From Deltaproteobacteria bacterium (GTDB taxonomy: Bacteria; Myxococcota_A; UBA796; UBA9615), in assembly GCA_002724675.1 (NCBI GenBank), contig PBPL01000101.1:8-64007 (forward strand): a stretch of 64,000 nucleotides of DNA. The letters run 5' to 3'. A program made the translations under genes and the position numbers. The notes under the pieces were generated by a model, which made no database searches, was not told the DNA's origin, and worked only from the letters and a program-made list of their open reading frames with translations. Shown here one piece after another: positions 47,650 through 60,562 of the stretch (position 1 is its first letter; every line of letters begins with the position of its first letter).

Positions 47650-49526
47650 CGGTGCTTGGCGGGTCCCACACAGGAGCGACGCATCCTACCCGGATTCCGT
47701 CCGCGCGACACCAGCCCGAGCAGTGCCCACGCCATCAGCAGAGCCACCGGCCCGTGTCCGCGAGCAGAACCACCCAACGACAGGAGCGAGGCCCCACAGT
47801 CCAAGCTGGGAGTCTCGTCCAGACGAAGAGGGTCGGAATAGCCCAGGTATTCCTCTAGGTTCGAGACGCCATCTCCATCGGCATCGAGCGCCCCATCGGC
47901 TCTCTGCGGATTCAATCCCCAGGCAAGCTCCCACACGTCATCCATGCCGTCCGCGTCCCCATCCGGAGGCAGATAGATCAGGCCCAACTCCACCCGTTCT
48001 TCAGTTCCCACCGAGACGACATCAGCGCTCCGCAGCGACCGTGCCTCTGGCCAGTAGGTTGTGACGCGGCTGGGATCGCCGGTGCAAAATGGTAGCCACT
48101 CAACCTGGACCAGGTAGGCGCCAGTATCGAGGCCCTGGACCACAAAAGCGCCATCCCCATCCGTTCGACCACCAGCGACCTCCATCTCGTCAGAGGCGTC
48201 GAATACTGTAATTGCGGCTCCACGAACCGCGGTGCCTGTTCGAGTCCGCACCGACCCCACCAACTGGCCTCCTTCCAGCATGGAGATGTCCAGCTGGCGT
48301 GTCTCACCAGCAACCAATCGGATGGGTTCGGCTGTGCGAAATGGAAGCAGTGGCGACGTACCGGCCAACTGGACCTCCACAGACACCGCACCCGCGGGCA
48401 AGTGCTCCAGACGAGCGGGTGTACTGGAGGTCTCCGGTCCCACCGACCGCGCCAGTAGGCGCTCCCCTCCCCCTCCATCGCTCGCCTGCCGCACAACCAA
48501 TTGCGCCCCGTAGCCCGCCTGCTCCTCCAGCCCACTGACACGAACCTCCAAGACCGCGGCCTCGGCGAGGACGAGGTCAGGAACCGTTGTCACCTCGCCC
48601 GCTTCGAGAAGCAGCCAATCAGCTTCGGCTTGAGTGTCCACTCCAGGAGACCACGTCCTTGAAAACCCCTCCGCTTCCACTCGCAACTGAAACTCAGAGC
48701 CGGGAACGGCGTCGAAGTAAAACCGACCGGTCGAATCGGTTGTAGAGGGCGGAACTGACGCGTTCCGCATCGACAAGAAAACCTCAGCCCCCGGGACAGG
48801 TCTATCTTCCTCGAGGACCCGACCCGCCACCGTGGCTCCTGCAGGCACCACGAGGTCAGCGCGTCGGTCCTCTCCACGCACAGCGTGAATGAACTCCGCC
48901 CCCTCAGGATTCCAGGTCCCCGGGAACCAGACCGACCCCGCCATGGGCACCTCGCCCAGCGGCGCCAGGGAGACTCTCAGCTCGTAGAGCCCCGGGAGGA
49001 TCTCCTCGTCCTCCACGAACGAATCCAGACCCGTGATGCGGTACTGACCTTCATCATCGGTCCAGGATTCTCGAATCAGCCCCTGGTGGAAATAGCCCAC
49101 CCCAGTGGCCGTGACCCTCTGGCCAGCGAGAGGGGCTCCATTGGAGTCCACAACCGTGCCCCACAACGACCCCCCTACAGGCAACAGGAAGTCGATGCCA
49201 GACAAGGTCTGATCGCTCTCTAAGCGCAAGATCTCTGCATTGCAGAAGAGATAGCGATCATCGTAGTAGGCACCCAGCCGATTGAGGGCATCCGGCGGCA
49301 AGGCCCAGGCCCGGTGCAGGCCTGGGTCGACTCCTTCGATGCGGTAGAACCCGCGCTCGTCCGTCGTGGACAGGGCCGCTTGGCCCTTGAGGTCCATGGC
49401 ATAGACCTGGACGCCCTCCAGCGGCTCCCCACCAGGGTATCCGGCGACCTCCCCCTCCAGAACGGCAGCGGCCGCGGCCCCCCCGTAGAGGAGGACCGCG
49501 GCCGCGAGAATGCCTATTGGGCGAAT
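47646..49526 (-). CDS. Secreted protein: repeated carboxypeptidase-regulatory-like (CarboxypepD_reg) domains, a TSP3-like Asp-rich Ca-binding repeat, and a C-terminal Cys + hydrophobic + Arg-rich sorting-like tail
   Basis: Repeated G.V.D..G.P..GA.V... TD..G.Y.I.GL patterns, and DGDADGMDDVWE...DADGDGVSNLEEY. The first canonical start is ATG 49397, but the in-frame sequence upstream encodes a signal peptide and the start of the first domain. I therefore extend the call to ATT 49524-49526 (see findings). Confidence 0.6.
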   Translation of the reverse strand: MRPIGILAAAVLLYGGAAAAAVLEGEVAGYPGGEPLEGVQVYAMDLKGQAALSTTDERGFYRIEGVDPGLHRAWALPPDALNRLGAYYDDRYLFCNAEILRLESDQTLSGIDFLLPVGGSLWGTVVDSNGAPLAGQRVTATGVGYFHQGLIRESWTDDEGQYRITGLDSFVEDEEILPGLYELRVSLAPLGEVPMAGSVWFPGTWNPEGAEFIHAVRGEDRRADLVVPAGATVAGRVLEEDRPVPGAEVFLSMRNASVPPSTTDSTGRFYFDAVPGSEFQLRVEAEGFSRTWSPGVDTQAEADWLLLEAGEVTTVPDLVLAEAAVLEVRVSGLEEQAGYGAQLVVRQASDGGGGERLLARSVGPETSSTPARLEHLPAGAVSVEVQLAGTSPLLPFRTAEPIRLVAGETRQLDISMLEGGQLVGSVRTRTGTAVRGAAITVFDASDEMEVAGGRTDGDGAFVVQGLDTGAYLVQVEWLPFCTGDPSRVTTYWPEARSLRSADVVSVGTEERVELGLIYLPPDGDADGMDDVWELAWGLNPQRADGALDADGDGVSNLEEYLGYSDPLRLDETPSLDCGASLLSLGGSARGHGPVALLMAWALLGLVSRGRNPGRMRRSCVGPAKHR

Positions 49527-49529
49527 GGC

Positions 49530-50462
49530 TTACTCGAAGCCAATCAGCCAGATCGCCTGTCCACCGTACTGCCCAGACAGGTCCGTGCCCACGTAGGGGT
49601 TGGTCTCGGTGTTCTTGAAGAACTCCCAGTATCCGTACCACGAAGAGCCGGGGCCCGCCGCAGCCGAGACCTGGTTGATACCAATCTCGTTGGACAGCGT
49701 TCCAGGGGTGTTGTTCACGAAACCAGCGTGGGTGAACTCAAGCCCGTACTCAGACAGGGTCTGCTCGATCTCGGCAGCGCTGTAGCCACCGTCCACCGTC
49801 AGCTCCATGCCCTGATCGCTCATCGTGGTGACATCCACCAAGCCGAGGCTGAGGAAGTCGCCCATGCCACCATCGGTGATGGGAGTCAGCAGCGAGGGGC
49901 CGAAGTTGGCGCCGGCGAGGTCCAGCTCGGCGACATCGCAGTCGTCCGGGTTGGTCGCAGGATCGGAGATGTCGGTGGCCGACGTGTGATCGAACTCAAT
50001 GGAGCCCGTGCAGTTGTTGCAGCCTTCACCAGCCAGGATGCCGGGGCCGAAGGTGGCAGAGCCAGCGATCTGAATCCACTGCGTGCAGTTCAGGATCTGG
50101 GTTGCCTCGTTGTACTCAGCCCAGTAGTTGACACCGAACACGGCAGAGATGTCGGTAGAGGAGTCGTCCACGGGGACCGCTTCCATCTCGATGGAGAAGC
50201 TGATGGCAGCCAGCGCGAACTCAGCCGCGGTGTCGTCATCATCATCGTCGTCATCATCATCGTCGTCGCCGAGGTTGTTACCACCGTCGTCGTCGTCGTC
50301 ACCAGGAATGTTGTTGCCGTCGTTGTCAGTGTCACCGTCGATGGACGAGTCGCCACCATTGGCACCATCTGTGCGGGCATCACAGCCCATTCCAACCAAC
50401 GCAACACCCACAACCAGCGCCAACATATAGCTACTGAACATCTTCACGATAACCTTGAACAT
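49530..50462 (-). CDS. Asp-rich lipoprotein, function unknown
   Basis: ATG 50460-50462 preceded by GGAGGGAG. Lipobox LVGMGC. D/N/G-rich region including D5 and D12 runs. The remainder has no recognisable motif. Confidence 0.65.
   Translation of the reverse strand: MFKVIVKMFSSYMLALVVGVALVGMGCDARTDGANGGDSSIDGDTDNDGNNIPGDDDDDGGNNLGDDDDDDDDDDDDTAAEFALAAISFSIEMEAVPVDDSSTDISAVFGVNYWAEYNEATQILNCTQWIQIAGSATFGPGILAGEGCNNCTGSIEFDHTSATDISDPATNPDDCDVAELDLAGANFGPSLLTPITDGGMGDFLSLGLVDVTTMSDQGMELTVDGGYSAAEIEQTLSEYGLEFTHAGFVNNTPGTLSNEIGINQVSAAAGPGSSWYGYWEFFKNTETNPYVGTDLSGQYGGQAIWLIGFE
50232..50300 (-). repeat. GAY (Asp) codon tract encoding GDDDDDGGNNLGDDDDDDDDDDDD
   Basis: The plus strand reads GTCGTCATCATCATCGTCGTCATCATCATCGTCGTC..., a low-complexity trinucleotide tract inside the lipoprotein CDS. 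Confidence 0.9.
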
Positions 50463-50704
50463 TCGGGTCTCCCTCCACCTCGCATATACCGACCAGACCG
50501 GTTGCAGACACCCTGCAACACGAACCATCCAGCCCAGCTGAGTGCGAGCGGCGAGCGGTATGTACCCGAGAGCCGCGCGAAAGAAAAGTCCTTTTTCGAA
50601 CAAGCCCTACGCGAAACGGCAACAGGCATCGAAATCGGAAAAAACAAGAAGAGACGCAACTTCAAGACAAGGTCGACGCTGTAACCGATAGCGGCAACCG
50701 CAGC

Positions 50705-51991
50705 TCAGTCAACGCGAACCTGCCTGGGAGGCTCCTTCGACGCCGAGACCGCTCTGACCCGAGCCGTATCCAGCTGACCTCGACCAAACTCCGAGTCGAT
50801 CTCGCGTGCCAGCGAGAGCACGAAGCGAAGAGTTTGCTCGAGAGCGCGGGGCTCTACCGAGTCCAATCGGTCCTGGTGCGTGTGTAAGACCTCCGCAGCC
50901 CTGCCACGAACCAACGTAGTGAGCGTCACCGCCCGGTAGCCGGCCTCCGTCACCGGACCCGCATCGGTTCGCCCCACAAGGGCGACCTCGCCGACCCCAT
51001 CGAACTCATCGGACTGAGCGAGACGCTCCGCCAGAGCAGGCAGGCTTGGTCTATATGGCAAGCGGTCCCAACGCCCTTCTGAGCTGACGAAGTGCAGCTC
51101 CCCACGGCCGACGTCGTCTAGGTTGACGAAGAAGGTCGCGCGCCGGTCCAGAAGATGAGCGAACTGGCGCACGAACGCCTTCATGCCGCCCGAGTCCGCT
51201 TCACGCGCGCCGGTCGCGAGGACCCACAGCTCGCAGTGCTCCAGTGGTTCATTCACCAGATGCTCCGCGGCCACTAGAGCCACCGCGAGGCCAGAGCCGT
51301 TGTCGATGGCCCCAGCGGTGGGGACAGAGCGCCACCAATCGATGGCAATGAGAAGCGTGGCGACGTGGATCCAGGCCGCCATCAGCAGCGCCGCAAGCGC
51401 GACGGGAGAGGGTTCAGGAAGCGCCAACGCCAAGATGGAGGCGACAAGTTGAGTAGCACCACCGACGAGTACAATGGTGCCAGGGTGCAGGGGCACACCA
51501 CCGATTAATTCATAGTGAGCCAGTCGCTTGACCCAGGGACTGAAGAGCGTGGACGCACCGGCCACGTCCGCATGCGCCACGAGCACCACCCGACCCCGAC
51601 TGCCCGGCTGCCGAAGGCGCGCGACCATATTGCCCGTCAGCTGCTTCATGAGAAGCCAGCGCACCAGACGCGGGCGGCCGCGAAGCTCACCCCAAAAGGA
51701 CAGCAAGACCAACGAAGTCAGCAACACAGGCCCCAACCCGTTGCTCAGAAGGGACCAGAGCAGGGCCACGAGCAGAAGGGCCGAGTGTGTCCCCAGCAGG
51801 ACAGAGGTCTGAGGAGCGCACACCGCCCCCTCAACGACCGTGTCCATGCCCAGCCGGTCTAGACGCCCGGCAAGCGCAGCCTGGGCCATGCGCTCACCTT
51901 GAGAACCCGCCAGTCGACCAGGCAACTCGGTGACAACCCCGATGAATTCCTTCATGCGTTGGACCGTCGATGTTTGATGCGAGTGTGACAT
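50705..51991 (-). CDS. M28-family metallopeptidase-like membrane protein
   Basis: RVVLVAHADV... and GAIDNGSGLAVALVAAEHL...WVLATGAREADSGGMKAF resemble M28 metal-ligand blocks. Several hydrophobic helices lie N-terminal to and between these blocks. Confidence 0.5.
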   Translation of the reverse strand: MSHSHQTSTVQRMKEFIGVVTELPGRLAGSQGERMAQAALAGRLDRLGMDTVVEGAVCAPQTSVLLGTHSALLLVALLWSLLSNGLGPVLLTSLVLLSFWGELRGRPRLVRWLLMKQLTGNMVARLRQPGSRGRVVLVAHADVAGASTLFSPWVKRLAHYELIGGVPLHPGTIVLVGGATQLVASILALALPEPSPVALAALLMAAWIHVATLLIAIDWWRSVPTAGAIDNGSGLAVALVAAEHLVNEPLEHCELWVLATGAREADSGGMKAFVRQFAHLLDRRATFFVNLDDVGRGELHFVSSEGRWDRLPYRPSLPALAERLAQSDEFDGVGEVALVGRTDAGPVTEAGYRAVTLTTLVRGRAAEVLHTHQDRLDSVEPRALEQTLRFVLSLAREIDSEFGRGQLDTARVRAVSASKEPPRQVRVD

Positions 51992-52073
51992 TGTCGAGAA
52001 GAGTCTAAACCGTTCGCTATACTCTCAAACCCCAGGGGTCGGTCTTCGGCCCATTACCTCGGTTAGGACCTCG

Positions 52074-53498
52074 ATGAACCTCGTTGTCGACGAGGTTGTT
52101 TCGCTGCACAGCGACAACCTCTCTCATGTATTCCATGTACCCACATCATCGCTGTATGCGATGGACTCCGAAACCATGTCTATCCTCGAGGGTGCTCGTG
52201 ATGGACTGCATACCGATCAGAGCCTGCAGAAACTGACGGCGGACTCAGGTCTCGACCCGGCCGAGGTCGAGGACATCATCGACAATTTGGTGAAGTTGCG
52301 TCTCCTGGTCCCACCAGGCGAGACCGGCAACCGAGGCCCACTTGCTGACCGGCCGCAGAGTGGCCGGAGCATGGGCAATCTCGTCCTCCACGTGGCACAC
52401 ACCTGCAATCTGGGTTGCGGCTACTGCTATGCGGAGCAAGGCCTGTACAAGGGCAAAGCCACCCTCATGAACGAAGAGCGAGCCCATGAATATGTGGACT
52501 GGCTATTCGACCAGTGTGATCCGGAGACCAAGTCTCTCGGCATCACTTTCTTCGGGGGCGAGCCACTGCTGAATCTGAAAGTCATGAAGTCCGCCGCAGC
52601 CCATGCTCGAGAACGAGCGGACACGGACAACAAGTCTGTGCGGTTCTCCGTGACGACCAACGGCACCCTAGTCACCCCCGAGATCGTCGACTTTCTAGCC
52701 GCCATCGACTGTGTCGTCACAGTGAGTCTGGACGGCATCGGCAAGACCAACGATCGCCTGCGCCCGTTCCACTCGGGCCGCGGGTCCTACGACCTCGTCC
52801 TGGACCGCATCCAACCGCTCCTCGAACGGGGCAAGGTGGCTGCCCGTGTCACCGTCACCCGGCAGAACCTCGATGTCGTAGACACCGTCACGACGCTCCT
52901 CGAACGAGGCTTCGCTGAGGTGGGGTGCTCGCCAGTCGATGCGAAGAATCCTGCCTACGACCTGCGAGGGGAAGACTACGAAGTGCTGCTCGATGGCTTC
53001 GGCACACTCTCCCGACGCTACATCGACGAGGCCGTGCAGGGTCGTAAGTACGGCTTCTCTAACATCGCCAACATCATCAAGGCGGTGCACCAAGGGCACA
53101 ACAAGGACTACCCGTGCGGCGCGGGGCTCCAGATGGTTGCGGGTGCCCCCAACGGTGAGATGAGCCTATGCCACCGATTCGTTGGTGAGCCGGACTACGT
53201 CCTTGGCAACGTCAAAGAGGGTGGAATCGATAGCCATCGTCGGCTTCAGATCCTCGAGGACATCCAGCTGTCCGAGCGATCCGACTGCTCCAGTTGCTGG
53301 GCCCGTTACATCTGCTCCGGCGGATGCCACCACGTCAACTTCCTGTTCGAGGGAGACCCCAGCCGCACTTACCTGACCCACTGTGACTACCTCCGAGCTT
53401 GGTATCGCATGGGCCTCGAAGCCTACGCTGAGATCATGTCACGCAACCCCGAGTTCGTCGGGGAGTTCATCGACCCCGGTTTTCTGTGCAATCAGTAA
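52074..53498 (+). CDS. qhpD: Radical SAM / SPASM-domain peptide-modifying enzyme (QhpD-like thioether-forming maturase)
   Basis: CX3CX2C at C111/C115/C118 (CNLGCGYC, nt 52404-52427). Full 7-Cys SPASM motif: C348-x12-G-x4-C366 ... C405-x2-C408-x5-C414-x3-C418 ... C437 (nt 53115-53384). About 100 aa N-terminal to the core could be a peptide-binding (RRE-like) region. Sits immediately upstream of a QhpC-like peptide gene. Confidence 0.8.
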   Translation: MNLVVDEVVSLHSDNLSHVFHVPTSSLYAMDSETMSILEGARDGLHTDQSLQKLTADSGLDPAEVEDIIDNLVKLRLLVPPGETGNRGPLADRPQSGRSMGNLVLHVAHTCNLGCGYCYAEQGLYKGKATLMNEERAHEYVDWLFDQCDPETKSLGITFFGGEPLLNLKVMKSAAAHARERADTDNKSVRFSVTTNGTLVTPEIVDFLAAIDCVVTVSLDGIGKTNDRLRPFHSGRGSYDLVLDRIQPLLERGKVAARVTVTRQNLDVVDTVTTLLERGFAEVGCSPVDAKNPAYDLRGEDYEVLLDGFGTLSRRYIDEAVQGRKYGFSNIANIIKAVHQGHNKDYPCGAGLQMVAGAPNGEMSLCHRFVGEPDYVLGNVKEGGIDSHRRLQILEDIQLSERSDCSSCWARYICSGGCHHVNFLFEGDPSRTYLTHCDYLRAWYRMGLEAYAEIMSRNPEFVGEFIDPGFLCNQ

Positions 53499-53535
53499 CG
53501 AGAGCCTAAGATTGGCGCGAAAAGGAACCCAGCCC

Positions 53536-53832
53536 ATGAGCCGAATCAAGCCTCTGAACATTAAGGCAAGAGCTGTCGAAGCGAGCACAGACCGCGACGT
53601 GCGGGGCTACGCATTCGGCGACTGCTGCGCATCCTTCGCGCCGGGTTGGGAGGTGGGCACCCAAGACAACGCCGACCCCTGCCCGTGGAAGAGCGACCTC
53701 AGCCTCTGCTGGGGCACCTGCTACTGGATGGGTCAGGTGCCCGACTACATCTCGTACGGGGAGTGGCTCGACACCTGCGGCAACATTCAGAACGACTGGC
53801 GCAATCTCTGTACCATTCCGGACAACGGGTGA
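53536..53832 (+). CDS. qhpC: 98-aa Cys/Trp-rich precursor peptide, QhpC-like (gamma subunit of quinohemoprotein amine dehydrogenase; CTQ and thioether carrier)
   Basis: ATG 53536 preceded by AAAGGAA. Sequence MSRIKPLNIKARAVEASTDRDVRGYAFGDCCASFAPGWEVGTQDNADPCPWKSDLSLCWGTCYWMGQVPDYISYGEWLDTCGNIQNDWRNLCTIPDNG. Blocks C-x3-F-x-PGWEV, C-x3-C-x-W-x3-VPD and DWRNL match my recollection of Pseudomonas/Paracoccus QhpC. The Cys-to-acceptor spacings match the published crosslinks (see findings). Confidence 0.75.
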   Translation: MSRIKPLNIKARAVEASTDRDVRGYAFGDCCASFAPGWEVGTQDNADPCPWKSDLSLCWGTCYWMGQVPDYISYGEWLDTCGNIQNDWRNLCTIPDNG

Positions 53833-54908
53833 CGCTCATGCTCCAGCGCACGAACTCCTATATCTGCACTCTGGCCGCTCTCGTCGCGGCTGCCGTCTGG
53901 CTGCTCGCCCTGCCTCAGCACACAGAGGCGGCGGGCGCTCGCACTGCATGGGTATCTAGCAACCACATCCAGGTCATTGACCTGGACACGGCTCGGGTCA
54001 TTGGCCGGCTGCCGCTCTCCGAGTTCATCCACGACATGGACTTCAGCGTGGACGGCAACCGCGTGTACGTAGGCAGCAGCAAGGGGCTGCGTGTGGCCGA
54101 TGCCAACGAGCTCCGGTTTGTGCAGCAGGTGTCCACGAGCATGACCAAGGCCGTAGCGGTCTCCAAAGACGGCAGTCGCGTCGCAGCGATTCATCCTGGG
54201 GACCGAGAGGCGACACAGGCAGCCCGGAAAGCTGGCCTTCCCCTCCCCCCCGCCAAGATCACGATCTACTCGACGCTGGACATGAAGGAACAGAGTTCCT
54301 GGCACGTGCACGCCATGACATTCGATGTCCTGTTCGCGCCATCGAACGATCGGGTCTACGTGTTGGTACCCCCCGAGGGCATGGTCTATGTCCACGACTT
54401 GAGTGGGGCAGTTCTCGACACCATTCAGCTCGTACCGAGGAGCCCCGAGGGTTCCCACCAGGGAGCAATGCTGACCTGGATGGCGCTCTCGCCCGATGGC
54501 CGATCGCTGGTGGTCCCCGGCACAACCGCAGACCGATCGTTCGTAGCAGAGGTCGACCTGGGCAACAGACGACCCCTGGATGAACGCGTGGTCCACCAAG
54601 ATCTGGGACACAACCGGAGGATCCAAGGGCTGGCTTGGGACGATGACGGCAGTGGTGTTTACGTCACTGCAGTGAACTCCATGGTCAAGTTCAATGGTCT
54701 CGGTCTTCCCATCGCCTGGGAATCCATGCCGCTCAACTACGTCGACATCGAGCCCATCCCAGGCACCAACGAGAACGTCCTGGTGGCGCCCATCTTCTCC
54801 AAGTCCAACAAGAGCGGGGGGGTCGCCATCTTGGGCGAAAACGGCGAGTTCCTGAGAACGGTGGAGTTGCCCGACATGAGCCCCTACTTCGTGGCTGTCC
54901 GACCCTGA
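53829..54908 (+). CDS. qhpB: Periplasmic 7-bladed beta-propeller protein (QhpB-like beta subunit)
   Basis: GTG 53829 overlaps the precursor stop (GTGA); ATG 53838 is an alternative start. Signal peptide ...ICTLAALVAAAVWLLALPQHTEA-AG. Seven repeats of the pattern hydrophobic strand-D/N-x-turn...(S/D)xDGxRVYV, e.g. IQVIDLDTARVIG...FSVDGNRVYV, LRVADANELRF...VSKDGSRVAA, ALSPDGRSLVV, WDDDGSGVYV. Confidence 0.7.
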   Translation: MTLMLQRTNSYICTLAALVAAAVWLLALPQHTEAAGARTAWVSSNHIQVIDLDTARVIGRLPLSEFIHDMDFSVDGNRVYVGSSKGLRVADANELRFVQQVSTSMTKAVAVSKDGSRVAAIHPGDREATQAARKAGLPLPPAKITIYSTLDMKEQSSWHVHAMTFDVLFAPSNDRVYVLVPPEGMVYVHDLSGAVLDTIQLVPRSPEGSHQGAMLTWMALSPDGRSLVVPGTTADRSFVAEVDLGNRRPLDERVVHQDLGHNRRIQGLAWDDDGSGVYVTAVNSMVKFNGLGLPIAWESMPLNYVDIEPIPGTNENVLVAPIFSKSNKSGGVAILGENGEFLRTVELPDMSPYFVAVRP

Positions 54909-55900
54909 CCACACTCTGCCTACACGCGCCCGACCGGGCGCGGCTGACGCAACTTGAGCAAGCCTCGGACCTTCGTCGGTCGGAGGCTGCCTGGCTATCC
55001 AGTCTGCCCGACTACAGCCGGCTCTATTTTGGGGTCGAGTTCTGCGAGCACCTGCTTCCCAGCGCGGACGACGTGGAGGCCGCTTGCGACTTCTGCAACC
55101 GGCGTCAATGGAAGCTAACGCTGCTGACACCCTACGTAACCGACTGGGGGCTCGAGAAGATCGACCCACTCCTCCAGGCCCTAGACACCATGGCGCCCCA
55201 TGGCACCGAGGTGGTCGTCAACGACTGGGGAGTACTCCGCCAGGTAGCCAACCGCTCCAACGCAGACCTCTTGGTTGTACTGGGCCGAGGGTTGAACCGG
55301 ATGTTCCGCGACCCGAGAGTTCCCGATGTAGGTCCAGAACATCTGGGGGGAGACGCTCCACCGAGCGCTTGGCGTAGCGCGAGCCACCAGAGTCAGGGTT
55401 TCCGAACCATGCTCCGCTCGGCAGGCATCCAACGGATCGAAACGGACATGCCGATGCAAGGTATGCAGGACCTGGACCCCGACGAACAAGACCTGAAGCT
55501 AAGTGTTCACCTGCCCTATGGAATGGTGGCCAGCGGCCGCATCTGCATGATGAGCGCCCTTGGGCAGTCGGCTTCAGTGCGATTCCCCCCACCTCGCGCC
55601 TGCACTGCGCCCTGCCACGACTACACTTTGGAGCTTCGCGCGCCCTGGACGCGTCGAGCGGTTGGAGCAGGCCGGCTACCCCTGGTTGCAGAGGACAGCT
55701 TTCTGCCTCTAGACCACGTGCTCAATCGCCGTCGTAACGCGTTTCCAGCCCACGAGAATGACGACGCACCGAGGTTCATCCAGAAAGGCAACACCCACTT
55801 CTACTGCCTGGACGAGGAGAAGGTGGACAGTGCGCTGGACTGGGTCCACCGCAACCCCACAGCAGACCGCATCGTGGTAGCACCTGACGTGCCCATGTAG
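54905..55900 (+). CDS. Divergent peptidase-U32-family (TIM-barrel) protein, first of a tandem pair; probable CTG start
   Basis: The listed ORF starts at GTG 55073. The same frame is open back to 54902 and encodes TTLCLHAPDRARLTQLEQ...YSRLYFGVEFC, paralogous to the N-terminus of the next gene (QILCPVNSPEEVAPLVDAGADEFYCG), which is the typical U32 start. U32-like core KLTLLTPYV...EVVVNDWGVLRQV...GIQRIETDMP. Cys cluster C-x19-C-x3-C (GRICMM...RACTAPCH). Confidence 0.5.
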   Translation: MTTLCLHAPDRARLTQLEQASDLRRSEAAWLSSLPDYSRLYFGVEFCEHLLPSADDVEAACDFCNRRQWKLTLLTPYVTDWGLEKIDPLLQALDTMAPHGTEVVVNDWGVLRQVANRSNADLLVVLGRGLNRMFRDPRVPDVGPEHLGGDAPPSAWRSASHQSQGFRTMLRSAGIQRIETDMPMQGMQDLDPDEQDLKLSVHLPYGMVASGRICMMSALGQSASVRFPPPRACTAPCHDYTLELRAPWTRRAVGAGRLPLVAEDSFLPLDHVLNRRRNAFPAHENDDAPRFIQKGNTHFYCLDEEKVDSALDWVHRNPTADRIVVAPDVPM

Positions 55901-55928
55901 GCTTGCGAGCCCTAGGACCCAGAGCCCC

Positions 55929-57035
55929 GTGCAAATCCTTTGCCCCGTCAACAGCCCCGAAGAGGTCGCTCCGCTTGTGGATGCAGGGGCGGACGAGTTC
56001 TACTGCGGCCTGTTCCCCACAGAGTGGTACGAAAAGTGGGGTCGTGGGAGCTGGCCTAACCGGCGCGGACCAGGCCCGGCCAACATCAGCAAGATTGACG
56101 ACCTGGCGCGGCTGGCAGACAGCGTGCACACCGCAGGCTCCGGTGGGCCCAACCAGCGGCGAGTTCCACTGTTCGTTGCGCTAAACCAACAGTTCTACCC
56201 AGACGACCAGGCGGACTTCCTCCTGGGGATCGCTCAGGACCTCCAGAGCCGCTCCGCTGTGGACGCCTTCATAGTGAGTGACCCCGGCTTCATGGGCCTC
56301 TTGAAGACTGAGATTCCGGAGGCGCGAGTCTTCTCCTCCACGGTGTCTGTTGCAACCAATGCTCAGGCGGTCCGGTTTCTTGCGGACTTGGGATGCTCCC
56401 GAGTCATCCTGTCCCGTCATCTGCACCTGGCCGAGGTCGAGTCGCTGCAACAATCCGTCCCCGATGTGGAGCTGGAGGTCTTCCTGCTCAACGACAACTG
56501 TTATTTCGAGGAAGGCTTCTGCAGCACGACACACACCATGCCGGGCTTCGGTGTCTACTGCATGACACCGTGGGAGCTGAGAGTCACCCGCGATGATCAG
56601 GGGGGGCAGGGTCTATCCGATCCCGAGGAGCGAGCTCGCTGGGACTTTCTCATCGACGAGCACCGACGCTTCCTGGGCAATCTGTCGCACCGGGGTTTTG
56701 GGGGCGGTCGCGCAGCAGTTCCGCTCGGACCATGCGGACTCTGCGCGATCCCCAAGCTCATGGACCTGGGCATCCACAGCGGCAAGATCGTGGGTAGGGA
56801 GGCCAGCCTGTATCGAAAGATCCGCTCTGTTCAGTCCGTCCGATACGTACGGGACAGCTATCGAGAAACCGGAGATGCTCAAGAGGCAAAGAAGAAGGCA
56901 GTAGAGCTTCGTGCTGACCCACGGGGTTGCAGTAGCGGCATGTCCTGTTACTACCGTAGCGCCCGAGACCGCGACCTCATCCCCCTGCCCTCCCGGAGCA
57001 CCAAGAAGCCGACTCGAAACGCGACCAAGCCATGA
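55929..57035 (+). CDS. Peptidase-U32-family protein, second of the tandem pair
   Basis: GTG start. MQILCPVNSPEEVAPLVDAGADEFYCG, VALNQQFYPDD...DAFIVSDPGFMGLLK, VSVATNAQAVRFLADLGCSRVILSRHLHLAEV and FLLNDNCYFEEGFCSTTHTMPGFGVYC (CX6CX12C), plus PCGLC. This is the U32 architecture with Fe-S-type cysteines, as in the UbiU/UbiV/RlhA family. Confidence 0.65.
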   Translation: MQILCPVNSPEEVAPLVDAGADEFYCGLFPTEWYEKWGRGSWPNRRGPGPANISKIDDLARLADSVHTAGSGGPNQRRVPLFVALNQQFYPDDQADFLLGIAQDLQSRSAVDAFIVSDPGFMGLLKTEIPEARVFSSTVSVATNAQAVRFLADLGCSRVILSRHLHLAEVESLQQSVPDVELEVFLLNDNCYFEEGFCSTTHTMPGFGVYCMTPWELRVTRDDQGGQGLSDPEERARWDFLIDEHRRFLGNLSHRGFGGGRAAVPLGPCGLCAIPKLMDLGIHSGKIVGREASLYRKIRSVQSVRYVRDSYRETGDAQEAKKKAVELRADPRGCSSGMSCYYRSARDRDLIPLPSRSTKKPTRNATKP

Positions 57036-58927
57036 CCTCAAAGGGGTCCCCTCCCCCCTCTCCAGCCTTTGTGCCCGAGGCCATACGGCCGGACTCGGTG
57101 CGCCCAGCCGACACGGAGGTGTCGGAGCACACGAAGGTCCCCTGGAAGCGCGTCTTCAGCTACCTACTGCCCTACTGGAAGGCCGAGGTCCTTCTGGTGC
57201 TCGGTATGGCGATCGGTATTGGGCTCTCCTTGGTCTACCCGTTCCTGCTGCGAGAAATCGTCGACGATGTGGTGGGCCCCGGCGCCTCGGCTGCGACCGA
57301 TCGATTGTTACCCCTTGCCGCCCTCATCCTGGCCGCCACGGCCGGCGGGGTCGTGCTCTCTGCCGCTGCCGCCTGGCTCCAGACCTGGGTCACAGCACAC
57401 GTCCTCGTTGATCTCCGCTTGGAGTTGTTCCAGCACCTTCAGTCATTGGGCCCTGCTTTCTTTGCCCGCAAGCGACTGGGGGACGTCCTGTCTCGCATGG
57501 GAGGAGACCTCGCCGAGCTGCAACAGGTGGCCACCGGAACTCTCATCAATGTCATTGGGTCGGTCGTCACACTCGTGGGAGTCATCACGGCGCTCACCTT
57601 CCTCCAGCCCCTATTGCTTGCCGTAGGCGCGGCGTTCATCCCCATCGCTATCGGCTTACTGGTGCTGCTTCGGCCCATCATCCGGCGCCTGTCTTTGAGG
57701 ATTCGAGAGCGCAACGCTGACATCTCCCATCAGATGTTGGAGAGCCTAACCGGCCTGCGCACGGTCCTGGCCCACGGGCTTGCCGACCGAGAAGCGAAGC
57801 GGTTCGAGGGCAACAACTTGGCGTTGATCCGAGCCGTTCTGCTCTTCCGCCTGTGGAACTCGGGATCAGCCGGCGCCTTCCAGATCCTCGTCACGGCGAA
57901 CCTCCTGGCTGTCCTCGTCGTTGGTGTCTGGCTGATGCGAACGACTGCGATGACCCCAGGCGACCTCGTCGCGTTCCTCCTGTTCCAACAGCGACTCTAC
58001 GGTCCGCTGCAGGGGCTGGCGGGCACTTATGTCAATCTGCAGCGGGCAGCAGCGTCAGTGGCGCGAGTCTTCGAGTTGCGCGACGCCAAGCCCCTGGAGG
58101 CTGCCGACCCGGCCCTGTCCCTCGACGAACCCTTCCAGGGACGCGTCGAGTTCGACAAGGTTTCGTTCCAATACGCTCCCGGACGACGGGTTCTGACCGA
58201 CCTGACGATGCGAGTGGATCCCGGAGAGACCGTGTGCCTGGTCGGCCCCTCAGGAGTGGGCAAGACGACCGTCCTCGAGCTCATGTTTCGATTCGTCGAC
58301 CCCGATGAGGGACGCGTTCTACTGGACGGCATCGATCTTCGAGAACTGGACCTCGACAGCGTTCTGCCCCAGGTCGCGTTGGTAGGCCAAGAGCCCGCGC
58401 TGTTCGATGGCACTCTACGCGACAACCTCCGATGGCTCCGGCCGGACGCGCCAGAGGCCACCATGAACGAAGTGGTCGAGCAAGTGGGCTTGTCGGAGTT
58501 CGTCCGCAGCCTGCCCCAGGGGCTGGAGACTCCTCTCGGCGACCGCGGCATTCGCCTGTCCTCTGGGCAGCGCCAGCGCATCGGGCTCGCCCGCGCGCTT
58601 CTCCGAGAACCCGTCCTCTTGGTGCTGGACGAAGTCACCTCGGCCCTGGACTGGGAGAGTGACCGGCTCGTCGTCGAAGCACTCCAAGCTCGGCGAGCCT
58701 CGGGCTGCACCACCCTGATCATCTCCCACCGCCTGCATCTTGCCGTCGATGCAGACCGAGTCGTCGTACTAGAAGACGGTCACGTGGCGACCACAGGCAC
58801 CCACCTCACCCTGCTCGACCAGGGCGGACTGTACCGCAGACTTTGGGACTTGCAGCGAGGCGCGGCAGAGGCCAGGAGGTCCCCCAGCAGCGGCAGAACA
58901 CACCCCACCGAGGACGGCTCGGCGTGA
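57032..58927 (+). CDS. qhpF: ABC exporter, fused TMD-NBD half transporter (QhpF-like)
   Basis: ATGA overlap with the U32 stop. Six-helix TMD followed by Walker A GPSGVGKTT, signature LSSGQRQRIGLARAL and Walker B LLVLDEVTSALD. Confidence 0.8.
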   Translation: MTSKGSPPPSPAFVPEAIRPDSVRPADTEVSEHTKVPWKRVFSYLLPYWKAEVLLVLGMAIGIGLSLVYPFLLREIVDDVVGPGASAATDRLLPLAALILAATAGGVVLSAAAAWLQTWVTAHVLVDLRLELFQHLQSLGPAFFARKRLGDVLSRMGGDLAELQQVATGTLINVIGSVVTLVGVITALTFLQPLLLAVGAAFIPIAIGLLVLLRPIIRRLSLRIRERNADISHQMLESLTGLRTVLAHGLADREAKRFEGNNLALIRAVLLFRLWNSGSAGAFQILVTANLLAVLVVGVWLMRTTAMTPGDLVAFLLFQQRLYGPLQGLAGTYVNLQRAAASVARVFELRDAKPLEAADPALSLDEPFQGRVEFDKVSFQYAPGRRVLTDLTMRVDPGETVCLVGPSGVGKTTVLELMFRFVDPDEGRVLLDGIDLRELDLDSVLPQVALVGQEPALFDGTLRDNLRWLRPDAPEATMNEVVEQVGLSEFVRSLPQGLETPLGDRGIRLSSGQRQRIGLARALLREPVLLVLDEVTSALDWESDRLVVEALQARRASGCTTLIISHRLHLAVDADRVVVLEDGHVATTGTHLTLLDQGGLYRRLWDLQRGAAEARRSPSSGRTHPTEDGSA

Positions 58928-59658
58928 ACAAGTCCACTACAGACCGAGGTCCTCTGGTCGCTGTCGTGGACAGTGGCGTGGCAGCCGGACACCCGCACTT
59001 GGAAGGCCTACAGTTGCGTTCCTTCTCCCTCGAGGGAGCGGGATCACCACTGGACCGACGGCCAGAGGCATCGGACCGGACAGGGCATGGCACTGCGTGT
59101 GTTGCCGCCCTATACCGGGCGAATCCCCGGGTGGAGGTCCTAGCAATCCGTCTCTTGGATGAAGAGTTGAGAACAACCGCCGAGGCTGTGGCCGAGGCGA
59201 TCCGCGTCGCTGCCGACGAAGGAGCGAAGGTCATCAACCTCAGCCTGGGCTCGGGCAGGGCCGAATCGAGGTCCCTACTGGAGGAGGCCGTGCTGTACGC
59301 CAGGGAGCGGTCAGCACACTGTGTGGCTGCCGCCCACCCAAAGGGACGGCAGCTTTGGCCAGCCGACCTGCCCAGCGTGATCTCAGCGATTAGTCACCGC
59401 AGTTGCCCTCTCAGCGACCTGTATCGTGTGGAGGGGCCACTGCCCCGGTTTCTCGCGCACGGCTATCCACGGCCCATCGAGGGCCGGCCCCCCACCGCCA
59501 ATCTGTACGGCCCATCGTTTGCCGCCATTCACTTGTCAGCAAAGGTTGCGGAGATTCTGACCAGAGACTCCCAGTTGGCATTCTCCGACATCGTCACCTG
59601 CCTGGAAGAGAGCTGTTCCGGCTCCTGGAATGAAACCAGCACTCACCCTAGGTCTTGA
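58924..59658 (+). CDS. qhpE: Cytoplasmic subtilisin-like (S8) serine protease (QhpE-like leader peptidase)
   Basis: GTGA overlap with the ABC stop. Asp block LVAVVDSGV, His block DRTGHGTACVAAL, Asn region VINLSLG, Ser block YGPSFAAIHLSA. No signal peptide. Only 244 aa. Confidence 0.7.
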   Translation: MNKSTTDRGPLVAVVDSGVAAGHPHLEGLQLRSFSLEGAGSPLDRRPEASDRTGHGTACVAALYRANPRVEVLAIRLLDEELRTTAEAVAEAIRVAADEGAKVINLSLGSGRAESRSLLEEAVLYARERSAHCVAAAHPKGRQLWPADLPSVISAISHRSCPLSDLYRVEGPLPRFLAHGYPRPIEGRPPTANLYGPSFAAIHLSAKVAEILTRDSQLAFSDIVTCLEESCSGSWNETSTHPRS

Positions 59659-59683: not shown

Positions 59684-60562
59684 GTGTACATGTCTCCCGC
59701 ACCTGACGAACCGAGCTTCGAAGACGCTGAAGAGGCGTTCGAGCGTGGCGACGTCGAGACTGCCCTGGCGATCTGTGAGGGCTACCTCGGCGAAGACGAG
59801 TCCAAGGCACCCGTCGAGGCCCTCTACTTAGCTGCAGAGTGTCTCCTGGAGCTCCAGGAGGTCACCGAAGCGACCCACATGATCGACCTGGCCTTGAACG
59901 AGCACCCAGACGACGCCGTGCTGGTACACACGAAAGCCATTTGCTGCTTCGAGCAAGCCAAGCTCGAAGATGCTCGGAAGGGCTTCGAGAGAGCCGCGAA
60001 CCTGGACGACCAACTGGGGGAGCCGCTGTTCTACCTAGGCATCCTGACCGAACGAGACGGTGACTTCGGCGCAGCAGACCGCCTCTTTGAGCACGGTGTT
60101 CGCTTGGACCCCGAGAACCTGTCCCTGCCGGTCGATTGGCCGGCCGACAAGGTTCGCCAGATCTTCGATGAGGTGGTCGAAGAGATGCCAGATCCTTTTG
60201 GCATGTGGCTGGCTGGTCTGCGCGTGGACGTGGCCGACCTTCCCGACGACGCTGCTCTGGCTGCCGCAGAGGGACCCATCTCCCCACTCGTTCACTGTCT
60301 CTTTGACGGGCCAGCACCAAGCCCTCCGGCGGAGAAGACGGACCCCGACGAGTGGCTTACGACCCACCCGAGCCGCGTCCGACTGTTTCGACGCAACCTG
60401 GGCAAGAGCGCCCACGACGAGTACGAGCTACACCGAGAGATACTCGAAGCTCTCCTCTGGGAATCCATGGAGTTCCTGGGCCTCGACGAGGGACACCTGG
60501 CCAAGCTCGGTATCCTCGACGACGAGGACGACGAGGCGCTGCTCCCGGGCAAGCCCCACTAG
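59684..60562 (+). CDS. TPR-repeat protein fused to a degenerate Zincin_1 (DUF1025-like) domain that lacks the HExxH histidines
   Basis: N-terminal TPR-like helices (AEEAFERGDVETALAICEGYL..., AICCFEQAKLEDARKGFERAANLD..., LFYLGILTERDGDFGAADRLFEHGVRLDP). The C-terminus VRLFRRNLGKSA...REILEALLWESMEFLGLDEGHLAKLG aligns with the ...VLHEIGHHFGLDEEDL..LG family motif, but W/E/F replace the His ligands. 25 nt after qhpE-like, and the last gene before a strong hairpin. Confidence 0.55.
   Translation: MYMSPAPDEPSFEDAEEAFERGDVETALAICEGYLGEDESKAPVEALYLAAECLLELQEVTEATHMIDLALNEHPDDAVLVHTKAICCFEQAKLEDARKGFERAANLDDQLGEPLFYLGILTERDGDFGAADRLFEHGVRLDPENLSLPVDWPADKVRQIFDEVVEEMPDPFGMWLAGLRVDVADLPDDAALAAAEGPISPLVHCLFDGPAPSPPAEKTDPDEWLTTHPSRVRLFRRNLGKSAHDEYELHREILEALLWESMEFLGLDEGHLAKLGILDDEDDEALLPGKPH

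What the first reader, a model, noticed from the sequence alone, without database searches (positions are those of the whole stretch)
53536..53832. Precursor peptide keeps the QhpC crosslink register (CTQ Cys/Trp plus three Cys-acid pairs) and adds three extra cysteines
As I recall the published QHNDH gamma-subunit structures, CTQ is Cys37-Trp43 and the thioethers are Cys7-Glu16, Cys27-Asp33 and Cys41-Asp49.

In this peptide:
- C30-E39 is spaced +9, identical to 7-16.
- C58-W64 is spaced +6, identical to 37-43. The codons are TGC 53707-53709 and TGG 53725-53727.
- C62-D70 is spaced +8, identical to 41-49.
- C49-D54 is spaced +5, against +6 for 27-33. This is a one-residue deletion; the D-L-x-x-C that follows is conserved.

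Conserved blocks are PGWEV, C-x3-C-x-W-x3-VPD and DWRNL. If C30 corresponds to Cys7, the leader is about 23 aa (MSRIKPLNIKARAVEASTDRDVR).

Three cysteines are not in the canonical set: C31 (forming a CC doublet), C81 and C92. C81 lies 6 residues before D87 (CGNIQND), the same spacing as the 27-33 thioether. A fourth thioether or a C81-C92 disulfide is therefore conceivable.
Basis: partly seen in the sequence, partly recalled or inferred. Interest (0 to 1): 0.8.

Follow-up and report, generated by a model that had tools for sequence, protein, structure and literature searches.

The report
Haem-less QhpC-type quinone-cofactor peptide cluster
The 98-residue peptide really is a relative of the small cofactor-carrying subunit of a bacterial amine dehydrogenase. 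It belongs to an undescribed branch whose gene cluster lacks the haem subunit and replaces the oxygen-using maturation enzyme with a pair of iron-sulfur "U32" proteins.

Summary
ORF 53536-53832 encodes a 98-aa QhpC-family precursor, above the curated cut-offs of NCBIfam QH_gamma and Pfam PF08992. All eight cross-link residues align in register with the crystallised gamma subunits 1JMX_G and 1JJU_C. The second ring is one residue shorter.

Comparison with 66 distinct relatives refines the extra cysteines:
- C81 and C92, plus a P95-D96 tail, are fixed in this branch.
- C31 is dispensable (Cys 51, Ser 13).
- A Cys at the C81 position is the commonest state in the wider family.

Disulfide versus extra thioethers remains unresolved.

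The context is the larger finding. The operon is rSAM, peptide, QhpB-like propeller, UbiV-like protein, UbiU-like U32 protein, ABC exporter, S8 protease.
- None of 32 loci of this branch has the dihaem subunit QhpA, the flavin monooxygenase QhpG, or a credible CXXCH ORF.
- 24 of 32 carry the U32 pair.
- Three classical qhpADCBFE operons also carry this pair and lack QhpG; no locus has both.

I infer a haem-less CTQ enzyme whose tryptophan is hydroxylated by O2-independent U32 proteins. I found no paper describing this. Verdict: new variant of a known kind.

The parts
52074..53498 (+). QhpD-like radical SAM/SPASM maturase (474 aa), with CNLGCGYC cluster motif and a C-terminal Cys-rich SPASM region
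   Evidence: Best NCBIfam hit is TIGR03906 quino_hemo_SAM at 373.8 bits, below its 453 cut-off. Next is the PapB ranthipeptide maturase family at 296 bits. Pfam Radical_SAM and Fer4_12 hit. A profile built from it hits classical QhpD ORFs at 436-618 bits. A promoter-like site lies at 51994-52023.
53536..53832 (+). QhpC-family precursor peptide (98 aa). Inferred leader is residues 1-23 (53536-53604). The core carries C30/E39, C49/D54, C62/D70, CTQ C58/W64, plus C31, C81, C92 and the P95-D96 tail.
53838..54908 (+). QhpB-like beta-propeller (356 aa) with an N-terminal Sec-type signal peptide (MLQRTNSYICTLAALVAAAVWLLALPQHTEA). It starts 5 nt after the peptide's stop codon.
   Evidence: It does not reach NCBIfam QH_beta and matches 1jju_B only weakly, E 0.0033. 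Family-to-family hhalign against classical QhpB gives probability 99.5%, E 4.4e-22, over 290 columns.
54944..55900 (+). UbiV-like partner of the U32 protein (about 318 aa; start uncertain). Four invariant Cys form a C-Xn-C-X18-C-X3-C pattern.
55929..57035 (+). UbiU-like U32 family protein (368 aa) with conserved C-X6-C-X12-C plus CxxC and Cx5C
   Evidence: Pfam Peptidase_U32 at 121 bits against a 22.4 cut-off. NCBIfam TrhP and UbiU hits are below their cut-offs. hhalign to E. coli UbiU gives 99.2%. C191 and C198 align with UbiU C169 and C176.
57032..58927 (+). QhpF-like ABC exporter (fused permease and ATPase, 631 aa). Its start overlaps the U32 stop codon.
   Evidence: Pfam ABC_membrane and ABC_tran. 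A profile built from it hits the ABC genes of classical qhp operons at 340-746 bits.
58924..59658 (+). QhpE-like subtilisin-type S8 protease. The likely GTG start overlaps the ABC stop codon (GTGA).
   Evidence: NCBIfam QH_SP (QhpE) at 128.9 bits, below its 165 cut-off, and Pfam Peptidase_S8. Start codon read.
59684..60562 (+). TPR protein (292 aa), a conserved downstream neighbour in this branch. Role unknown.
   Evidence: Only weak TPR-type NCBIfam hits. Homologue present in 22 loci.
50705..51991 (-). Membrane M28 peptidase, divergently transcribed. Conserved next to the rSAM gene only in the Myxococcota or Deltaproteobacteria-type loci, so probably lineage synteny rather than part of the system.
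   Evidence: Pfam Peptidase_M28. Present in 21 loci. Absent from the Gemmatimonadota, Eisenbacteria and classical loci.

Best explanation
The ORF encodes the precursor of the small cofactor-bearing (gamma-type) subunit of a two-subunit, haem-less relative of quinohemoprotein amine dehydrogenase.

Inferred pathway:
1. In the cytoplasm the QhpD-like radical SAM enzyme binds the conserved leader and makes at least the three classical Cys-S-to-Asp/Glu methylene thioethers: C30-E39, C49-D54 and C62-D70.
2. W64 is dihydroxylated, not by the flavin/O2 enzyme QhpG but by the adjacent UbiU/UbiV-like pair of U32 iron-sulfur proteins.
3. The S8 protease removes the roughly 23-aa leader, and the ABC transporter exports the knotted peptide.
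4. In the periplasm the peptide joins the Sec-exported QhpB-like propeller, and the C58-W64 cysteine tryptophylquinone is completed.

The branch-specific C81 and C92 add either a disulfide or two further thioethers (C81-D87 and C92-D96). C31 is dispensable.

Shown here: family membership, register, gene content and co-occurrence. Inferred: every chemical step, the role of the U32 pair, and the absence of a haem partner at the protein level.

Sub-probabilities:
- QhpC-type cross-linked CTQ subunit: about 0.85.
- Works without a QhpA-type subunit: about 0.7.
- U32 pair is the Trp hydroxylase: about 0.55.
- C81-C92 disulfide: about 0.4.
- Two extra thioethers: about 0.35.
For: Family membership and register. 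All eight cross-link residues are invariant in the 28 relatives and two PDB chains of alignment A1.

Operon structure: seven genes (52074-59658) plus the downstream TPR gene (to 60562) lie on one strand with gaps of 5-37 nt or overlapping stop and start codons. There is no terminator-like site on that strand.

The propeller is homologous to QhpB: hhalign 99.5%.

Census of 82 distinct loci:
- This branch (32 loci): QhpA 0, QhpG 0, U32 24. Among loci with at least 6.5 kb on both sides, 16 of 20 carry U32.
- Classical branch (50 loci): QhpA 48, QhpG only 33, U32 only 3, both 0.
- Fisher test on hydroxylase type against branch gives p = 8e-14, not corrected for relatedness.

L063, L066 and L075 are classical qhpA-D-C-B-F-E operons that end in the same UbiV-like plus U32 pair and have no QhpG.

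Only one CXXCH ORF was found within the sampled flanks of any locus of this branch, and it looks spurious. There is one single-motif ORF in the whole 64-kb window.

U32 proteins are the known O2-independent, prephenate-linked hydroxylases: UbiU/UbiV, RlhA and TrhP (PMC6747719, PMC10990095). The pair here keeps the Cys motifs.

The cluster is conserved from 50 to 78% peptide identity in MAGs labelled Deltaproteobacteria/Myxococcota, Gemmatimonadota, Eisenbacteria and Glassbacteria.
Against: - No chemistry was observed.
- QhpA and QhpG could be encoded elsewhere in these genomes. Only 20-64 kb per genome was seen.
- 8 of 32 loci of the branch have no U32 pair nearby. Four of these are loci with full flanks. 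L019 and L020 carry a Cys-rich lipoprotein there, and L033 and L034 a second propeller-like ORF.
- No U32 protein has a demonstrated peptide substrate, and direct hydroxylase activity of U32 proteins has not been shown in vitro (PMC10990095).
- The same pair type also occurs in B12-rSAM clusters without QhpC, so it is not exclusive to this system.
- The exact peptide comes from Tara Oceans and other metagenome assemblies. An anoxic lifestyle is therefore not implied.
- rSAM, protease and propeller all score below the curated QhpD, QhpE and QhpB cut-offs.
Confidence: 0.7

Rival explanations
1. The extra cysteines form one C81-C92 disulfide in the periplasm, clamping the C-terminal segment. There are no additional thioethers.
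For: - Cys92 occurs only together with Cys81: 23 of 23 representatives at 80% identity.
- A second Cys pair at positions 80 and 90 is gained or lost together. P0028, P0034 and P0140 have CC...CLC. Their relative P0032 has S and S. That pattern is typical of disulfides.
- Positions 81 and 92 also pair as K/D in one proteobacterial group, which hints at contact.
- The TTQ-bearing small subunit of methylamine dehydrogenase is held by six disulfides (PMC7876137).
Against: - Cys81 is common without Cys92. Position 92 is then D, T, N, P, G, S or K, so Cys81 has a role that does not need Cys92.
- Cys92 co-occurs just as perfectly with D96.
- No usable 3D model was obtained. The AF2 peptide model had pLDDT 60 and did not match 1JJU or 1JMX.
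- The covariation counts are not corrected for phylogeny.
Confidence: 0.4
2. The rSAM enzyme makes five thioethers: the three classical ones plus C81-D87 (C-x5-D, the reader's idea) and C92-D96 (C-x3-D).
For: - C-x5-DW is kept wherever Cys81 occurs. This includes many QhpA-linked peptides in which Cys81 is a lone fifth cysteine.
- D96 is specific to, and invariant in, peptides that have Cys92.
- The related maturase PapB cross-links C-x3-D motifs and accepts C-Xn-D with n = 0-6 (PMC9413430).
- The PapB family is this rSAM enzyme's second-best hit, at 296 bits.
Against: - D87 is equally invariant in classical QhpC peptides that lack Cys81, so its conservation does not depend on a link.
- The paired gain of Cys80 and Cys90 is hard to explain with thioethers.
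- No QhpC with more than three thioethers has been described in the papers I could read.
Confidence: 0.35
3. The cluster makes an exported ranthipeptide natural product (a secreted cross-linked peptide), not an enzyme subunit. No quinone is formed.
For: - rSAM, leader peptide, S8 protease and ABC exporter together form a generic RiPP export set.
- The rSAM enzyme scores almost as well on ranthipeptide and SCIFF maturase models.
- No electron-accepting partner is encoded nearby.
Against: - The CTQ Cys and Trp and the active-site-proximal D54 are invariant.
- A signal-peptide-bearing QhpB homologue is encoded 5 nt downstream in the window and immediately downstream of the peptide gene(s) in every locus that extends past it.
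- A hydroxylase-type gene pair is part of the operon.
Confidence: 0.08
4. The U32-type pair has another job, such as proteolysis or modifying something else. The tryptophan is oxygenated by a QhpG encoded elsewhere, or by self-processing in the periplasm.
For: - 8 of 32 loci of the branch lack the pair locally.
- The pair type also occurs in clusters unrelated to QhpC.
- U32 is formally a peptidase family.
Against: - QhpG and the pair are strictly mutually exclusive across 82 loci. The pair also appears in three otherwise classical operons that lack QhpG.
- All characterised U32 functions with Fe-S motifs are hydroxylations (PMC6747719, PMC10990095).
Confidence: 0.25

Closest known systems
QhpC, gamma subunit of quinohemoprotein amine dehydrogenase (Paracoccus denitrificans 1JJU_C, Pseudomonas putida 1JMX_G), and its qhpADCBEFGR operon
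   Same: - Same family by curated HMMs.
- Same leader motif.
- Same PGWEV and C-x3-C-x-W-x3-VPD blocks.
- Same eight cross-link residues in register.
- Homologous rSAM enzyme, beta-propeller, S8 protease and ABC exporter encoded alongside.
   Different: - 34-38% identity only.
- Second ring one residue shorter (C-x4-D).
- Leader about 5 residues shorter.
- Added C81, C92 and a PD tail.
- No dihaem alpha subunit QhpA and no flavoprotein QhpG in the cluster.
- The partner proteins fall below the curated QhpD, QhpE and QhpB cut-offs.
UbiU-UbiV (E. coli), and the U32 hydroxylases RlhA and TrhP
   Same: - Two adjacent genes: one clear U32 member (hhalign 99.2% to UbiU) and one divergent partner.
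- The partner's four-Cys pattern, C-Xn-C-X18-C-X3-C, mirrors the UbiV pattern C-Xn-C-X12-C-X3-C.
- The pair is placed where an aromatic ring must be hydroxylated.
   Different: - Known substrates are a prenylated phenol or quinol and RNA bases. Here the substrate would be a tryptophan in a cross-linked peptide.
- No UbiT-like gene is present.
- The third and fourth Cys spacings differ.
- The partner is not detected by Pfam.
PapA/PapB (freyrasin) and SCIFF ranthipeptides
   Same: - SPASM-type rSAM enzyme forming Cys-S to Asp/Glu side-chain carbon thioethers.
- C-x3-D, C-x4-D and C-x5-D spacings in the peptide fall within PapB's accepted range.
   Different: - Those products are free peptides.
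- They have no tryptophan-derived quinone and no propeller partner.
Methylamine dehydrogenase small subunit (TTQ), and the LodA/GoxA CTQ oxidases with their flavoprotein maturases LodB/GoxB
   Same: - Protein-derived tryptophylquinone enzymes without a built-in haem subunit.
- The MADH small subunit is stabilised by disulfides and hands electrons to a separate carrier.
   Different: - Unrelated sequences.
- Different cross-link partner (Trp-Trp in TTQ).
- Maturation by the dihaem enzyme MauG or by flavoproteins that use O2.

Membership tests
QhpC / QH_gamma (NCBIfam NF037958, Pfam PF08992) | Score above the curated family cut-off | tested here: met
   63 bits against 50, and 41.3 bits against 25. 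A classical QhpC (L058) scores 161.8 bits, so this is a distant member.
QhpC / QH_gamma (NCBIfam NF037958, Pfam PF08992) | CTQ precursor residues Cys37 and Trp43 in C-x3-C-x-W register | tested here: met
   C58 and W64 align with C37 and W43. They are invariant in the family alignments.
QhpC / QH_gamma (NCBIfam NF037958, Pfam PF08992) | Three Cys/acid pairs at the thioether positions | tested here: met
   C30/E39 (+9) and C62/D70 (+8) have identical spacing. C49/D54 is +5 instead of +6 in 65 of 66 peptides of the branch.
QhpC / QH_gamma (NCBIfam NF037958, Pfam PF08992) | Thioether bonds and quinone actually present in the mature protein | not testable with these tools
   Needs mass spectrometry or a structure.
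Quinohemoprotein amine dehydrogenase (alpha-beta-gamma QHNDH, qhp operon) | Dihaem c-type cytochrome alpha subunit QhpA (TIGR03908) encoded with the gamma subunit | tested here: not met
   No QhpA-profile hit in the 64-kb window or in any of 32 loci of the branch, against 48 of 50 classical loci. Virtually no CXXCH ORFs. The rest of the genomes was not seen.
Quinohemoprotein amine dehydrogenase (alpha-beta-gamma QHNDH, qhp operon) | Beta-propeller subunit QhpB (TIGR03907) | tested here: inconclusive
   No hit to the curated model. Profile-profile homology is clear: 99.5%, E 4e-22. It is a homologue, not an equivalog by NCBI's threshold.
Quinohemoprotein amine dehydrogenase (alpha-beta-gamma QHNDH, qhp operon) | Flavin monooxygenase QhpG (NF049967) for Trp dihydroxylation | tested here: not met
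   0 of 32 loci, window included.
Quinohemoprotein amine dehydrogenase (alpha-beta-gamma QHNDH, qhp operon) | QhpD radical SAM enzyme (TIGR03906), QhpE protease (NF049966) and QhpF exporter | tested here: inconclusive
   These are the best hits but fall below the cut-offs: 373.8 against 453, and 128.9 against 165. The ABC exporter is generic.
U32 O2-independent hydroxylases (UbiU/UbiV type) | Peptidase_U32 domain (PF01136) | tested here: met
   ORF 55929-57035 scores 121 bits. The partner gene 54944-55900 is not detected by Pfam; only the L032 orthologue gives E 0.006.
U32 O2-independent hydroxylases (UbiU/UbiV type) | Conserved four-Cys [4Fe-4S] motifs in both subunits | tested here: met
   U32 protein: C-X6-C-X12-C plus further conserved Cys, with the first two aligned to UbiU C169 and C176. 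Partner: invariant C-Xn-C-X18-C-X3-C. Motifs as defined in PMC6747719. Cluster binding itself was not tested.
U32 O2-independent hydroxylases (UbiU/UbiV type) | Heterodimer formation and prephenate-dependent hydroxylation | not testable with these tools
   There is only conserved adjacency, in either gene order.

The most novel reading that the evidence does not exclude
A UbiU/UbiV-like U32 iron-sulfur pair hydroxylates a peptidyl tryptophan without O2, possibly using prephenate as the oxygen donor, to build cysteine tryptophylquinone. This would be the first protein substrate for U32 hydroxylases and an oxygen-independent route to a protein-derived quinone cofactor. It would feed a haem-less two-subunit amine dehydrogenase that may also carry up to five thioether rings.
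Probability: 0.45. Interest if true: 0.8.

Novelty: new variant of a known kind. Interest (0 to 1): 0.65.

Why it matters
CTQ biogenesis is currently understood to need O2, through the flavoprotein QhpG. The enzyme is defined as a quinohemoprotein.

A widespread branch challenges both points. It spans at least 32 loci in MAGs labelled as four phyla or candidate phyla, including Tara Oceans metagenome assemblies. It drops both the haem subunit and QhpG and recruits U32 proteins instead. Three classical operons make the same QhpG-to-U32 swap.

Consequences if the inference holds:
- It gives a directly testable case of non-orthologous displacement.
- It offers a soluble peptide substrate for the U32 hydroxylase family. 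PMC10990095 notes that direct hydroxylase activity of U32 proteins has not yet been demonstrated and that in vitro assays are still awaited.
- It extends the known ring patterns of QhpD/PapB-type thioether maturases.

Tried and rejected
- AlphaFold2 of the peptide with a 22-sequence alignment gave pLDDT 60.5. The model matched neither 1JJU nor 1JMX in a Foldseek search of the PDB. I drew no distance or helix inference from it.
- The afdb50 fold library was unavailable.
- The structure papers of Datta 2001 and Nakai 2015 are not held. I could therefore not read off the positions of residues 61 and 72 in the crystal structures.
- Pfam and NCBIfam give nothing for the UbiV-like gene, even at E = 10. 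Single-sequence hhalign to E. coli UbiV was uninformative.
- I considered that the C81/C92 pair compensates for loss of QhpA. I rejected this as a rule, because the P0152 lineage has the same pair and tail next to a QhpA-like gene.
- I considered M28 and TPR as system components. M28 tracks only one lineage. TPR has no assignable role.
- Literature searches combining QhpC, tryptophylquinone or QHNDH with U32, UbiU or prephenate found nothing. This is absence within the held library only.

Full report
**1. The observation**

The ATG is preceded by AAGGAA. Relatives start at the same Met.

The peptide passes two curated models. NCBIfam QH_gamma gives 63 bits against a cut-off of 50. Pfam QH-AmDH_gamma gives 41.3 bits against 25.

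phmmer against all PDB chain sequences finds only two matches, the two crystallised gamma subunits: 1jmx_G at E 4.6e-9 and 1jju_C at E 3.5e-7.

In that alignment the residues pair as follows:
- C30/C7 and E39/E16.
- C49/C27 and D54/D33, with one residue missing in between.
- C58/C37 and W64/W43.
- C62/C41 and D70/D49.

PMC7876137 confirms three Cys-to-Asp/Glu thioethers, Cys37 and Trp43 as the CTQ precursor residues, and a 28-residue leader.

**2. The extra cysteines in comparative view**

Three searches give the family context:
- A search of 5.8 billion proteins found 36 clusters at 50-96% identity.
- A scan of one genome per species found 385 QhpC relatives. The 30 closest (50-78% identity) form this branch. 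The remaining 50 kept are classical, at 33-44% identity.
- A filter-free profile search of 1.84 billion representatives found only 55 clusters for the whole family. About six of them belong to this branch.

In 66 distinct peptides of the branch:
- The C-terminal pattern C-x5-DW-x3-C-x2-PD (C81, D87, C92, P95, D96) occurs in 64. The two exceptions are truncated or frameshifted.
- The second ring is C-x4-D in 65.
- Position 31 is Cys in 51, Ser in 13, Ala in 1 and Gly in 1.

So C81 and C92 define the branch and C31 does not.

A Cys at the C81 position is the majority state of the family overall. In Planctomycetota, Gemmatimonadota, Acidobacteriota and Binatia peptides that sit next to QhpA, it is a lone fifth cysteine. 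Position 92 there is D, T, N, P, G, S or K. Only the classical proteobacterial group, which includes both crystal structures, lacks it.

**3. Disulfide or more thioethers**

For a C81-C92 disulfide:
- Cys92 never occurs without Cys81.
- A second pair at positions 80 and 90 appears and disappears together: P0028, P0034 and P0140 have it, P0032 does not.
- Positions 81 and 92 are K/D in one group.

For extra thioethers:
- Cys81 is conserved without Cys92 and is always six residues before the invariant D87.
- Cys92 co-occurs perfectly with D96, giving a C-x3-D motif.
- The related maturase PapB uses C-x3-D and accepts C-Xn-D with n = 0-6 (PMC9413430).
- The PapB family is this rSAM enzyme's second-best match.

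The AlphaFold model of the peptide was unusable. I leave this open at roughly 0.4 for the disulfide and 0.35 for the extra thioethers.

**4. The neighbourhood**

Eight genes lie on one strand with tiny gaps or overlapping stop and start codons. No terminator-like site is present on that strand.

| Coordinates | Gene |
|---|---|
| 52074-53498 | QhpD-like radical SAM/SPASM enzyme |
| 53536-53832 | precursor peptide |
| 53838-54908 | beta-propeller with a signal peptide |
| about 54944-55900 | unannotated protein (UbiV-like) |
| 55929-57035 | Peptidase_U32 protein |
| 57032-58927 | ABC exporter |
| 58924-59658 | QhpE-like S8 protease |
| 59684-60562 | TPR protein |

The propeller misses the curated QH_beta model. 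It is nonetheless homologous to classical QhpB by profile-profile comparison: 99.5%, E 4e-22.

The U32 protein matches E. coli UbiU at 99.2%. It keeps C-X6-C aligned with UbiU C169 and C176.

The unannotated protein is most likely a UbiV-like partner:
- Four Cys are invariant over 48 homologues, in the pattern C-Xn-C-X18-C-X3-C. UbiV has C-Xn-C-X12-C-X3-C (PMC6747719).
- hhalign to the adjacent U32 family gives 79.7%.
- It is invariably adjacent to a PF01136 gene, even in unrelated clusters.

The first conserved Cys of this protein lies upstream of the first canonical start codon. The gene probably begins at a CTG, and the deposited 275-aa protein is probably truncated.

**5. What is missing, and the displacement**

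I built profiles from verified classical genes of Salipiger thiooxidans (L058): QhpA 606 bits, QhpB 352, QhpG 416 and QhpE 223 on the NCBIfam models. I built further profiles from the window's own genes. All ORFs of 85 loci were then searched.

| Branch | Loci | QhpA | QhpG only | U32 pair only | Both |
|---|---|---|---|---|---|
| This branch | 32 | 0 | 0 | 24 | 0 |
| Classical | 50 | 48 | 33 | 3 | 0 |

Among loci of this branch with full flanks, 16 of 20 carry the U32 pair.

The three classical exceptions are L063, L066 and L075. They are qhpA-D-C-B-F-E operons that end in the same UbiV-like plus U32 pair.

Only one CXXCH ORF, apparently spurious, exists in the sampled flanks of all loci of the branch.

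Mutual exclusivity holds in two different operon architectures. That is the main argument that the U32 pair does QhpG's job, the dihydroxylation of the CTQ tryptophan (PMC7876137). U32 proteins are the known O2-independent hydroxylases, and prephenate is the O donor for UbiU/V (PMC10990095).

**6. Caveats**

- Only 20-64 kb per genome was examined.
- Eight loci of the branch lack the pair locally. Other genes sit in that slot in L019, L020, L033 and L034.
- The pair type also occurs without QhpC.
- The exact peptide is found in Tara Oceans and other metagenome assemblies, and in NCBI MAG GCA_003533695.1. A near-identical neighbouring protein is labelled Deltaproteobacteria by NCBI. Anoxia is therefore not implied.
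- Many MAG labels, such as 'uncultured Rickettsiales', are as written in the records and may be unreliable.
- The electron acceptor of a haem-less enzyme is unknown.

**7. Comparison and verdict**

The peptide is a member of the QhpC family. NCBI's pipeline already names two relatives as the gamma subunit.

The system fails two defining features of quinohemoprotein amine dehydrogenase, QhpA and QhpG. It should not be filed as QHNDH proper. It most likely works like one without the built-in cytochrome, with a different hydroxylase and a more heavily cross-linked small subunit.

I found no paper linking QhpC, CTQ or QHNDH with U32, UbiU or prephenate in the held library.

Novelty: new variant of a known kind. 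Interest: 0.65.

Noticed in passing
window 54905-55075: The UbiV-like gene has no ATG, GTG or TTG before its first conserved, probably cluster-binding, cysteine (SRLYFGVEFCEHLLP). The frame is open back to 54647, with CTG codons at 54944 and 54905. The deposited 275-aa protein (P0037, 99% identical) therefore looks N-terminally truncated.
   Followed up: partly
L004 880-1599; L029 948-1586; L031 9995-10646: Glassbacteria and Gemmatimonadota loci carry two tandem QhpC-like precursor genes of this branch in front of one propeller gene.
   Followed up: no
L019 11402-12109; L020 1524-2273; L033 11451-12533; L034 11212-12450: In branch loci without the U32 pair, the same slot between the propeller and the ABC exporter holds other genes. 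L019 and L020 have a Cys-rich lipoprotein-like ORF. L033 and L034 have a second propeller-like ORF.
   Followed up: no
L095 6932-8801; L096 6898-8780: Distant members of the UbiV-like family, again fused in an operon with a PF01136 gene, sit in clusters packed with B12-binding radical SAM enzymes and no QhpC. The two-gene U32 module seems to be a reusable tailoring unit.
   Followed up: partly
L092 5979-13003 (P0152): A separate QhpC lineage has the same C81/C92 pair and a VPD tail, but with a long leader and a 767-aa QhpA-like gene. An 801-aa cNMP-binding ferredoxin-like gene lies next door. The Cys pair is therefore not tied to loss of the haem subunit.
   Followed up: partly
P0169, P0180 (protein ids): Two 518-557-aa proteins carry a QhpC-like leader and core at the N-terminus, fused to a roughly 450-aa C-terminal domain. 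They appear to have only one Cys before the Trp.
   Followed up: no
window 47646-50603 (-): Upstream neighbours are a 583-aa protein with CarboxypepD_reg repeats and a 357-aa lipoprotein-like ORF with a long run of Asp. Both look like cell-surface proteins unrelated to the cluster.
   Followed up: no
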